Notes under the pieces: model-generated
Told to the model about the DNA's origin: nothing
What the model saw: only the letters and a program-made list of their open reading frames with translations
Databases searched by the model: none
Program-made: the position numbers and the translations under genes
Shown here: positions 38,113-38,976 of the stretch, in pieces
How the letters are laid out: every line of letters starts with the position of its first letter
Position numbering within the stretch: the stretch's first letter is position 1
Assembly (NCBI GenBank): GCA_964016885.1
Contig: OZ024747.1
Span: 17,360,001 to 17,424,000, forward strand
Origin: Eledone cirrhosa
Lineage: Eukaryota
Reading direction: 5' to 3'
DNA: 64,000 bases

Positions 38113-38976
38113 TATGGAATAGAATGAAACGAAATTTTATTTCTCACTCTTAGTACGGCACTTACTTAAATGTAAGTATGTATGTATGTATGTATACGTA
38201 CATACATATATGTATACAGACGTACAGTAGTATGTATATATATACATACATGCACACACATATATATGCACGTATCGGTTTACCGAACATTTATTATAAT
38301 GCTCGGTTTCTTTGTTTGTAAACAAACAAACAGCCCGAATTATGCCGTACAGTGTTTAGGCAACCACGTCACCTTTTTGTTCAACACTGACACAGGAACG
38401 ATGTACTAGTTTCAAGCTTATTAGCTATCGTCAGCATCGTATACCTTCCTGCCAGATGGTTGAACGTCTGAAAGTATATACTTTCCTTATTCATATTAAC
38501 GGCTGAGCAGCCTAATTTGCATATTGAGTGAGATCAGTCGACTGGCGCACCGAAAACGATAAATGGAATAGAATGAAACGAAATTTCATTTCTCACTCTT
38601 AGTACGGCAGTTACTTAAATATAAGTATGTATGTATGTATACGTACATACATATATGTATACAGACGTACAGTAGTATGTATATATACACATACATGCAC
38701 ACATATATATATGCACGTATCGGTTTACCGAACATTTATTATAATGCTCGGTTTGTTTGTTTGTAAACAAACAAACAGCCCGAATTACGCCGTACAAACA
38801 AACCGAGCATTATAATAAATGTTCGGTAAACCGATACGTGCATATATATATATGTGTGCGCATGTATGTATATATATACATACTACTGTACGTCTGTATA
38901 CATATATGTATGTACGTATACATACATACATACTATATATATATACATATATGTATGTACGTATACATACATACAT
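38113..38976 (-). mobile_element. Non-coding 449-bp tandem/inverted array with hammerhead (second retrozyme-like family)
   Basis: ATGGAATAGAATGAAACG recurs at 38114 and 38563. The direct repeat runs to ~38796, followed by an inverted copy 38797-38935. Flanked by (TA)n. Confidence 0.85.
38398..38440 (-). ncRNA. Type I hammerhead ribozyme (GUA site)
   Basis: The minus strand reads ACGATG-CTGACGA-TAGCT(AATA)AGCTT-GAAA-CTAG-TA-CATCGT. Stem I is 6 bp, and the base of stem II is a U-U mismatch. Confidence 0.8.

What the first reader, a model, noticed from the sequence alone, without database searches (positions are those of the whole stretch)
38113..38976. Second HHR array family (449-bp unit) with the same tandem-plus-inversion architecture
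Seen: 1.5 direct units plus an inverted ~140-bp arm in (TA)n, with an HHR at 38398-38440 (-). It has the same ACTAGT stem III but entirely different, still-pairing stem I (ACGATG/CATCGT vs AATATTG/CAATATT). This compensatory change supports selection on ribozyme structure. Two related families within 6 kb suggest a diversified superfamily.
Basis: partly seen in the sequence, partly recalled or inferred. Interest (0 to 1): 0.7.

Follow-up and report, generated by a model that had tools for sequence, protein, structure and literature searches.

The report
Promoter-bearing retrozyme riding Hydra Penelope elements
This is one copy of a very abundant 449-base non-coding repeat that carries a predicted self-cutting RNA behind a likely copy of the host's U6-type promoter, and its insertion scars, plus a few insertions that are half repeat and half Penelope element, suggest that Hydra-type Penelope retrotransposons paste it into the genome.

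Summary
Observation confirmed: a 449-bp unit, a 0.53-unit partial and a 140-bp inverted arm between (TA)n, with one type I hammerhead at 38398-38440(-). It is a daughter copy of a huge family: 25,568 hammerhead matches, control 0. The consensus does not restore the stem II base pair (U·U in 97 of 100), a state known from axolotl retrozymes. Stem I is homologous to the 466-bp family's, not entirely different: 3 of 6 pairs swapped. Outer ends fall at two fixed sites, one long plus one short in 16 of 19 two-armed insertions, as in the host's Hydra-type Penelope element (11 of 11). Eight insertions join a retrozyme arm directly to a Penelope end; later deletion is not excluded. A 12-mer plus TATA ahead of the ribozyme matches the host's U6, U6atac and MRP promoters (0 of 22 U1/U2), with 4-5 nt shorter spacing. 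Verdict: a non-LTR retrozyme; cleavage, circles and promoter activity are untested. The class is published. This scan reported sister families, the Penelope footprint and the U6-type promoter many times on other DNA; my look-ups did not show the hybrid insertions.

The parts
38113..38561 (-). Full 449-bp retrozyme unit; its 3' end is the family's 'long' end
   Evidence: folds with z = -6.4 against shuffles
38113..38172 (-). About 60-nt tail present at this end of the insertion only (Penelope-type extension)
38398..38440 (-). Type I hammerhead: 6-bp stem I, U·U at base of stem II, 1-bp stem III with palindromic CUAG loop; predicted cut after GUA between 38404 and 38403
38380..38465 (-). Extended stem I around the hammerhead (predicted)
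38475..38480 (-). TATA-like box, 43 nt after the start of the 12-mer
38512..38523 (-). Octamer-like 12-mer matching the upstream element of host U6, U6atac and RNase MRP genes
38553..38556 (-). Only T4 run of the unit, just past the long end of the preceding unit (sister subfamilies have T6-T7 just before the long end)
38562..38796 (-). 5'-truncated partial unit (unit positions 211-448), without hammerhead
38794..38933 (+). Inverted second arm (unit positions 247-382) ending at the family's 'short' end
38942..38979 (+). 38-nt duplicate of the short end inside the (TA)n run
38934..39136 (.). Right (TA)n target microsatellite
38086..38115 (.). Left degenerate (TA)n target
31870..33467 (+). Context: insertion of the homologous 466-bp sister family (three hammerheads, same 12-mer, same two-arm layout)

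Best explanation
This is a single-hammerhead daughter insertion of an abundant non-coding repeat family (a metazoan non-LTR retrozyme) that was likely pasted into (TA)n by the reverse transcriptase and endonuclease of a Hydra-type Penelope element. SHOWN: unit, arms, fixed long and short ends, (TA)n targets, conserved and covarying hammerhead, promoter-like module shared with host U6-type genes, the same footprint in the host's Hydra-type element, and direct retrozyme-Penelope junctions. INFERRED cycle: (1) arrays with two or more units are transcribed from the module in each unit, starting about 30 nt after the TATA box, just ahead of the ribozyme, and read on through the next unit; (2) the weak hammerheads cut as pairs joined through the ACUAGU palindrome and release unit-length RNA that contains the promoter; (3) a host ligase likely closes it into a circle; (4) the Penelope enzyme nicks (TA)n and copies the RNA from both DNA ends for more or less than one round, giving two head-to-head, 5'-truncated arms with one long and one short outer end. 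With one hammerhead, this copy would not release a unit-length RNA, so it is predicted to be a dead end.
For: Family size: 25,568 hammerhead matches and 24,475 12-mer-plus-hammerhead matches over both families, controls 0. Layout equals the one described for Penelope-like elements: partial tandem, inverted truncated copy, tail at one end (PMC8557442 passages). Ends: long+short in 16 of 19 two-armed insertions with both ends callable, 2 short+short, 1 intermediate+short (p = 0.002). Host Penelope element: DKT, CxCX5C, CxxC and CxH motifs as in the Hydra clade, (TA)n targets, long+short in 11 of 11 callable mini-insertions of 13. Hybrids: 8 of 11 distinct pattern hits are junctions with no (TA)n between a retrozyme arm and a Penelope end. 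Young arrays are near-identical unit to unit (0-1 differences in about 315 columns in 8 of 10 adjacent pairs of L061, L092, L098) and arm to arm (L097, 0 in 193). Promoter: 12-mer at -77 to -79 with TATA at -30 in three U6 lineages, MRP and one U6atac; absent from 22 of 22 U1/U2 upstream regions. A U·U stem II base and a 1-bp palindromic stem III each occur in axolotl retrozymes that cleave better as dimers (PMC7229834).
Against: No cleavage, circle or transcript was observed. The hammerhead combines two weakening features that the axolotl families carry separately, and 8 of 9 predicted Xenopus retrozymes did not cleave in vitro (bioRxiv 10.64898/2026.07.22.740005). The 12-mer-to-TATA spacing is 43-44 nt against 47-49 in host genes. 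T4-T7 runs at the unit boundary would stop Pol III, yet the model needs read-through. Hybrids do not keep the long+short rule (4 long+short, 3 long+long, 1 atypical), and one rejected hit (L157) looks like a deletion fusion, so they may be later rearrangements. The unit shares no sequence with the one Hydra-type family examined (no 12-mer in 20 loci). The window's two tandem units differ at 5 of 107 columns, 3 at family-polymorphic sites, and 10 of 38 tandem pairs show two or more such differences, which one circular template does not predict. No A-to-G excess (9 against 14 T-to-C).
Confidence: 0.7

Rival explanations
1. Same element and Penelope enzyme, but the template is a linear multi-unit transcript that ends at the T-run (the long end would be a Pol III stop) and is only partly cut; circles are not needed.
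For: The long end lies within a few bases of a T-run in the subfamilies seen: T6-T7 just before it in two, T4 just after it in the window's, T5 in the 466-bp family. The ribozyme is predicted to be weak. Some tandem units differ at polymorphic sites, including the window's.
Against: Arrays of 3-6 near-identical units fit rolling copying of one monomer; circles are shown for coral, mussel and axolotl retrozymes (PMC7229834).
Confidence: 0.3
2. The module is a relic of a captured U6-type promoter, or works with Pol II as in newt satellite 2; transcription comes by Pol II read-through.
For: Spacing 4-5 nt shorter than in all five host type 3 promoters; T-runs in the unit; a review states that retrozymes seem to lack promoters (PMC7761336 passage); newt satellite 2 uses an snRNA-type Pol II promoter (cited in PMC2220036).
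Against: Both families keep the 12-mer and TATA at nearly the same spacing although most other sequence has diverged, and the 12-mer is the U6-type element, not the U1/U2 one.
Confidence: 0.35
3. The hybrids are later deletions between neighbouring insertions in shared (TA)n runs, and another Penelope clade (Neptune, Naiad, Poseidon) is the real helper.
For: Retrozymes and Penelope ends often sit side by side in one (TA)n run; 3 of 11 hits were nested or deletion-fused; long+long hybrids 3 of 7 against 0 of 30 pure insertions (p = 0.0045); (TA)n bias is also reported for Naiads.
Against: No short+short hybrid in 7; junctions carry 1-3 nt microhomology or short filler like the arm-to-arm turns of pure insertions; long+long also fits two separate RNAs each copied from its own 3' end.
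Confidence: 0.3
4. A satellite spread by DNA-level recombination, with a non-functional hammerhead look-alike.
For: No Rfam hammerhead match shown for this copy; multi-unit arrays exist.
Against: Dispersed copies with fixed 3' ends and variable 5' truncation, covarying stems.
Confidence: 0.04

Closest known systems
Metazoan non-LTR retrozymes (Cervera and de la Pena 2020, PMC7229834; parts 2-4 of 6 and passages read)
   Same: Non-coding tandem units of a few hundred bp, one type I hammerhead each, thousands of copies; 1-bp stem III with palindromic loop as in HHR_Amex1; U·U at the base of stem II as in HHR_Amex2; Penelope proposed as helper.
   Different: Both weakening features occur in one ribozyme; unit slightly larger (449 against about 170-400 nt); a U6-type upstream module; two-arm insertions with fixed ends are not described in the parts read; no cephalopod mentioned in its text.
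Li, Clavereau and Pollet 2026 preprint (bioRxiv 10.64898/2026.07.22.740005; parts 1-3 of 5 read, supplements closed)
   Same: Retrozymes as non-autonomous partners of Penelope-like elements; single-hammerhead copies as likely dead offspring.
   Different: Rests on co-occurrence and pLTR homology in vertebrates. Here no homology to the Hydra-type family examined was found; the link is the footprint and the hybrid junctions.
Hydra-clade Penelope-like elements (Craig et al. 2021, PMC8557442; passages and section 11 read)
   Same: Partial tandems, inverted truncated copy, tail at one end only, (TA)n targets, hammerhead.
   Different: No RT or GIY-YIG frame; tail about 55-60 nt (about 80 nt in the host's element) against 30-40 bp in the paper.
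Newt satellite 2 (Coats, Zhang and Epstein 1994; seen only as cited in PMC2220036, paper not held)
   Same: Hammerhead repeat with an internal snRNA-type promoter.
   Different: That promoter is reported as Pol II; the module here matches the host's U6/U6atac/MRP type and not its U1/U2 type.

Membership tests
Metazoan non-LTR retrozyme | Type I hammerhead with intact core in each unit of a short tandem repeat | tested here: met
Metazoan non-LTR retrozyme | Non-coding, GC below 50% | tested here: met
   No frame of 90 aa or more inside the unit; about 42% GC over unit positions 1-290
Metazoan non-LTR retrozyme | Two or more hammerheads in tandem (active source element), family level | tested here: met
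   Arrays of 2-6 units in L002, L061, L092, L098
Metazoan non-LTR retrozyme | Two or more hammerheads in tandem, this copy | tested here: not met
   One hammerhead only: a monomer-class daughter copy
Metazoan non-LTR retrozyme | Self-cleavage of the RNA | not testable with these tools
   Active monomer fold computes at -1.7 kcal/mol against -8.5 for the best fold; the stem III hexamer self-pairs at -4.8; prediction only
Metazoan non-LTR retrozyme | Unit-length linear and circular RNA in vivo | not testable with these tools
   No RNA holder listed
Metazoan non-LTR retrozyme | Target-site duplication longer than 4 bp when present | tested here: inconclusive
   Both flanks are (TA)n, so none can be read
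Metazoan non-LTR retrozyme | No LTR, primer-binding site or polypurine tract | not tested
   Layout shows no LTR pair; PBS and PPT were not searched
Penelope-like element (Hydra clade), autonomous | RT plus C-terminal GIY-YIG reading frame | tested here: not met
   Element is non-coding; such frames lie in the separate host family
Penelope-like element (Hydra clade), insertion footprint | Partial tandem, inverted truncated copy, tail at one end, (TA)n target | tested here: met
   16 of 19 two-armed insertions long+short
Penelope-like element (Hydra clade), pLTR derivative | Sequence homology to the pLTR of an autonomous element | tested here: inconclusive
   None with the one family examined; other host Penelope families not examined
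Type 3 (U6-type) Pol III promoter | Host upstream element plus TATA box | tested here: met
   Same 12-mer in 5 distinct host promoters, 0 of 22 U1/U2 regions
Type 3 (U6-type) Pol III promoter | Host spacing between element and TATA | tested here: not met
   43-44 nt against 47-49 nt
Type 3 (U6-type) Pol III promoter | Transcription by Pol III from a fixed start | not testable with these tools
   Needs RNA data or an assay

The most novel reading that the evidence does not exclude
These retrozymes are self-transcribing RNA replicons: each unit carries a captured U6-type promoter inside the RNA it makes, its ribozyme cuts only in pairs so that single copies are dead ends, and the hybrid insertions are single events in which one Hydra-type Penelope complex copied a retrozyme RNA at one DNA end and its own RNA at the other, which would be direct genomic proof of the helper and of two-ended priming.
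Probability: 0.3. Interest if true: 0.75.

Novelty: new variant of a known kind. Interest (0 to 1): 0.5.

Why it matters
The locus itself is an ordinary daughter copy. The family matters for two open points about animal retrozymes: who transcribes them (a review says they seem to lack promoters) and who inserts them (Penelope is proposed from co-occurrence and homology, not shown). Here both become testable: a 12-base element to mutate, a predicted start site, two fixed ends, a named helper clade, and eight hybrid loci whose empty alleles would tell a single event from a later deletion.

Tried and rejected
RNA evidence: no RNA holder listed; the four runs laid were contigs of unknown kind, showing only that the family is present in organism A and, in a few contigs at 85-95% likeness, in B and C. 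RNA-editing scars: none in 35 segments of 21 loci (A>G 9, T>C 14). Rfam: only microRNA look-alikes from hairpins and (TA)n, all below cut-off. Pfam: 0 of 5 Penelope frame pieces matched, so the Hydra call rests on motifs, with no tree. L031 chimera (retrozyme joined to a truncated Penelope copy through a 37-nt inverted piece): origin ambiguous, not counted. Hybrid hits dropped before counting: L167 (duplicate of L166), L157, L161, L162 (nested or deletion-fused). Loci dropped from the end count: segmental duplicates L014-L023 and L030, overlap L006, chimera L024, one-armed or uncallable loci, and L092 and L104 (separate insertions). Conservation rates of core (8 of 962) and 12-mer (7 of 899) against 6.9% background are not used as evidence, because many loci were fetched by those motifs; the core rate was mis-indexed and is void. 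The first architecture script returned nothing and was rerun. U6 upstreams: 7 distinct ones were read from 18 loci, 4 of 7 have the 12-mer in place, 1 has it displaced by an inserted repeat, 2 lack it; U6atac 1 of 5, MRP 1 of 1; those lacking it are assumed, not shown, to be pseudogenes. Papers PMC308520 and PMC5785218 were not held. Literature searches: retrozyme + U6 promoter 0 papers; hammerhead + Penelope + octopus, hammerhead + cephalopod + tandem and Penelope-like + chimeric + template switching listed nothing on cephalopod retrozymes or hybrids, judged from listings only; subscription journals and preprint supplements were not searchable.

Full report
Observation. The minus strand reads: (TA)n, an inverted arm, a partial unit, a full unit, (TA)n. 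The full unit is 38113-38561 (449 bp), the partial runs to 38796 (95% identical), and the arm 38794-38933 is an inverted copy of unit positions 247-382. The single hammerhead at 38398-38440 is type I, with core CUGACGA and GAAA, U·U at the base of stem II, a one-pair stem III closed by palindromic CUAG, and triplet GUA. No Rfam hammerhead match for it is among the rows shown; the 466-bp neighbour's copies score below the cut-off.

Family. A DNA search found 1,869 candidates and 41 full-length matches at 96-100% among those scored. An exact pattern for this hammerhead has 25,568 matches in the 3.0-Gb genome, control 0; of the first 100 listed, 97 have U·U, 3 have C·G or C·A, none G-C. So the consensus does not restore the pair. 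At one match per 117 kb, a neighbour within 6 kb is unremarkable. The two window families are nevertheless homologous: they align without gaps across the ribozyme and share the upstream module and tail hairpin. Over 8 variants that I picked to span subfamilies, 93% of cells pair and 6 of 16 pairs change on both sides, 3 in stem I and 3 in stem II; slid controls pair 34-50%. These are few independent events.

Footprint. In 45 independent loci, one anchor scan gave 33 short-type and 31 long-type arm ends and 39 continuations, most ends running straight into (TA)n. The short end lies near unit position 385-395, the long end near 440-449. Among head-to-head two-armed insertions with both ends callable, 16 of 19 are long+short, 2 short+short, 1 intermediate+short (p = 0.002). 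The window copy is long+short. This is the layout described for Penelope-like elements (PMC8557442).

Helper. One locus led to a Penelope family with 3,173 candidates. Its frames show DKT, a CxCX5C linker, and CxxC and CxH around the endonuclease E and N, the marks given for the Hydra clade, which inserts into (TA)n. Pfam gave no match and I built no tree. Its ends show the same rule: long+short in 11 of 11 callable mini-insertions of 13. L098 is a hybrid: three retrozyme units with a long end, joined head to head without (TA)n to 45 nt of Penelope 3' end with a short end. Three pattern searches gave 12 hits at 11 places, controls 0. Three were nested or deletion-fused. Eight are clean: 4 long+short, 3 long+long, 1 atypical. 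Long+long occurs in 3 of 7 hybrids and 0 of 30 pure insertions (p = 0.0045). That fits two RNAs each copied from its own end, but also later deletion between neighbours. The hybrids are suggestive, not proof. The patterns cover only small parts of the unit, so eight is a floor.

Promoter. Both families carry a 12-mer and a TATA-like box ahead of the ribozyme; 24,475 places have the 12-mer followed by a hammerhead core, control 0. The same 12-mer lies at -77 to -79, with TATA at -30, in three U6 lineages, RNase MRP and one U6atac gene, and in none of 22 U1/U2 upstream regions. Several lower-scoring U6 and U6atac loci lack it. The spacing in the elements is 43-44 nt against 47-49, so function and polymerase are open. 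A start 30 nt after the TATA box would fall just ahead of the ribozyme. T-runs lie at the long end.

Mechanism. Shown: structure, ends, targets, module, hybrids. Inferred: transcription from the module with read-through; paired cleavage through the palindrome (active monomer fold -1.7 kcal/mol, hexamer duplex -4.8; axolotl ribozymes with either feature cleave 6% and 22% as monomers and better as dimers); circularisation; two-ended copying by the Hydra-type enzyme. Young arrays are nearly identical within an insertion, as one template predicts, but 10 of 38 tandem pairs, the window's among them, differ at two or more polymorphic sites. No editing bias was found. No RNA run was available. With one hammerhead this copy is predicted to be a dead end.

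Comparison and novelty. It works like, and by the testable features belongs to, the metazoan non-LTR retrozymes (PMC7229834). A 2026 preprint already argues that these are non-autonomous Penelope partners. A review says retrozymes seem to lack promoters; newt satellite 2 is the known exception, seen here only as a citation. My searches listed no paper on cephalopod retrozymes, a U6-type promoter in them, or hybrids. This scan has noted sister families, the two-end footprint and the U6-type module many times on other DNA; these are unchecked notes and not independent support. The hybrid insertions did not appear in my four look-ups.

Verdict. Real; an ordinary copy of a new variant of a known class. 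Interest 0.5.

Noticed in passing
L119 (G000:C2:210235850-210236550): A U6 copy is joined directly, without (TA)n, to a folded-back Hydra-type Penelope end, like hybrid L158. Penelope ends also lie beside U6 or U6atac copies in L045, L111, L114 and L133. The enzyme may copy U6-type RNAs generally.
   Followed up: no
L076-L087, L108, L109, L122-L129: Host U1 and U2 genes share a different upstream signature (an AT-rich 8-mer near -90, TCAGT near -56, TATA-like near -30 to -35) from the U6-type 12-mer.
   Followed up: partly
L038, L039, L043: In several copies of the U6 array a SINE-like repeat sits between the promoter and the gene.
   Followed up: no
L137-L155, 3' ends: The Hydra-type element has its own hammerhead-like fold with an unusual core and a long stem II, ending about 20 nt before its short end.
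   Followed up: no
L031:2230-6912: Retrozyme units run into a 5'-truncated Hydra-type copy through a 37-nt inverted piece; a second Penelope fragment lies at 8891-9900 on the minus strand.
   Followed up: partly
L049, L161: Penelope ends are inserted into the retrozyme's own internal (TA)n, so the unit carries a target site for its helper.
   Followed up: no
L013-L023, L030: One insertion (short+short ends, stem I mismatches) is present 12 times through large segmental repeats on C20 and C27.
   Followed up: partly
window 37824-37967, 40251-40394, 43826-43969: Three copies of a SINE-like repeat; one lies 150 bp from the element.
   Followed up: no
window 55139-55726, 57557-58417, 28900-29523: Frames that look like fragments of non-LTR retrotransposon proteins (recalled resemblance, not searched).
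   Followed up: no
window 17117-22614, 61064-63606, 29945-30049: Very long (TA)n runs of 5.5 and 2.5 kb and an isolated hairpin of about 100 nt.
   Followed up: no
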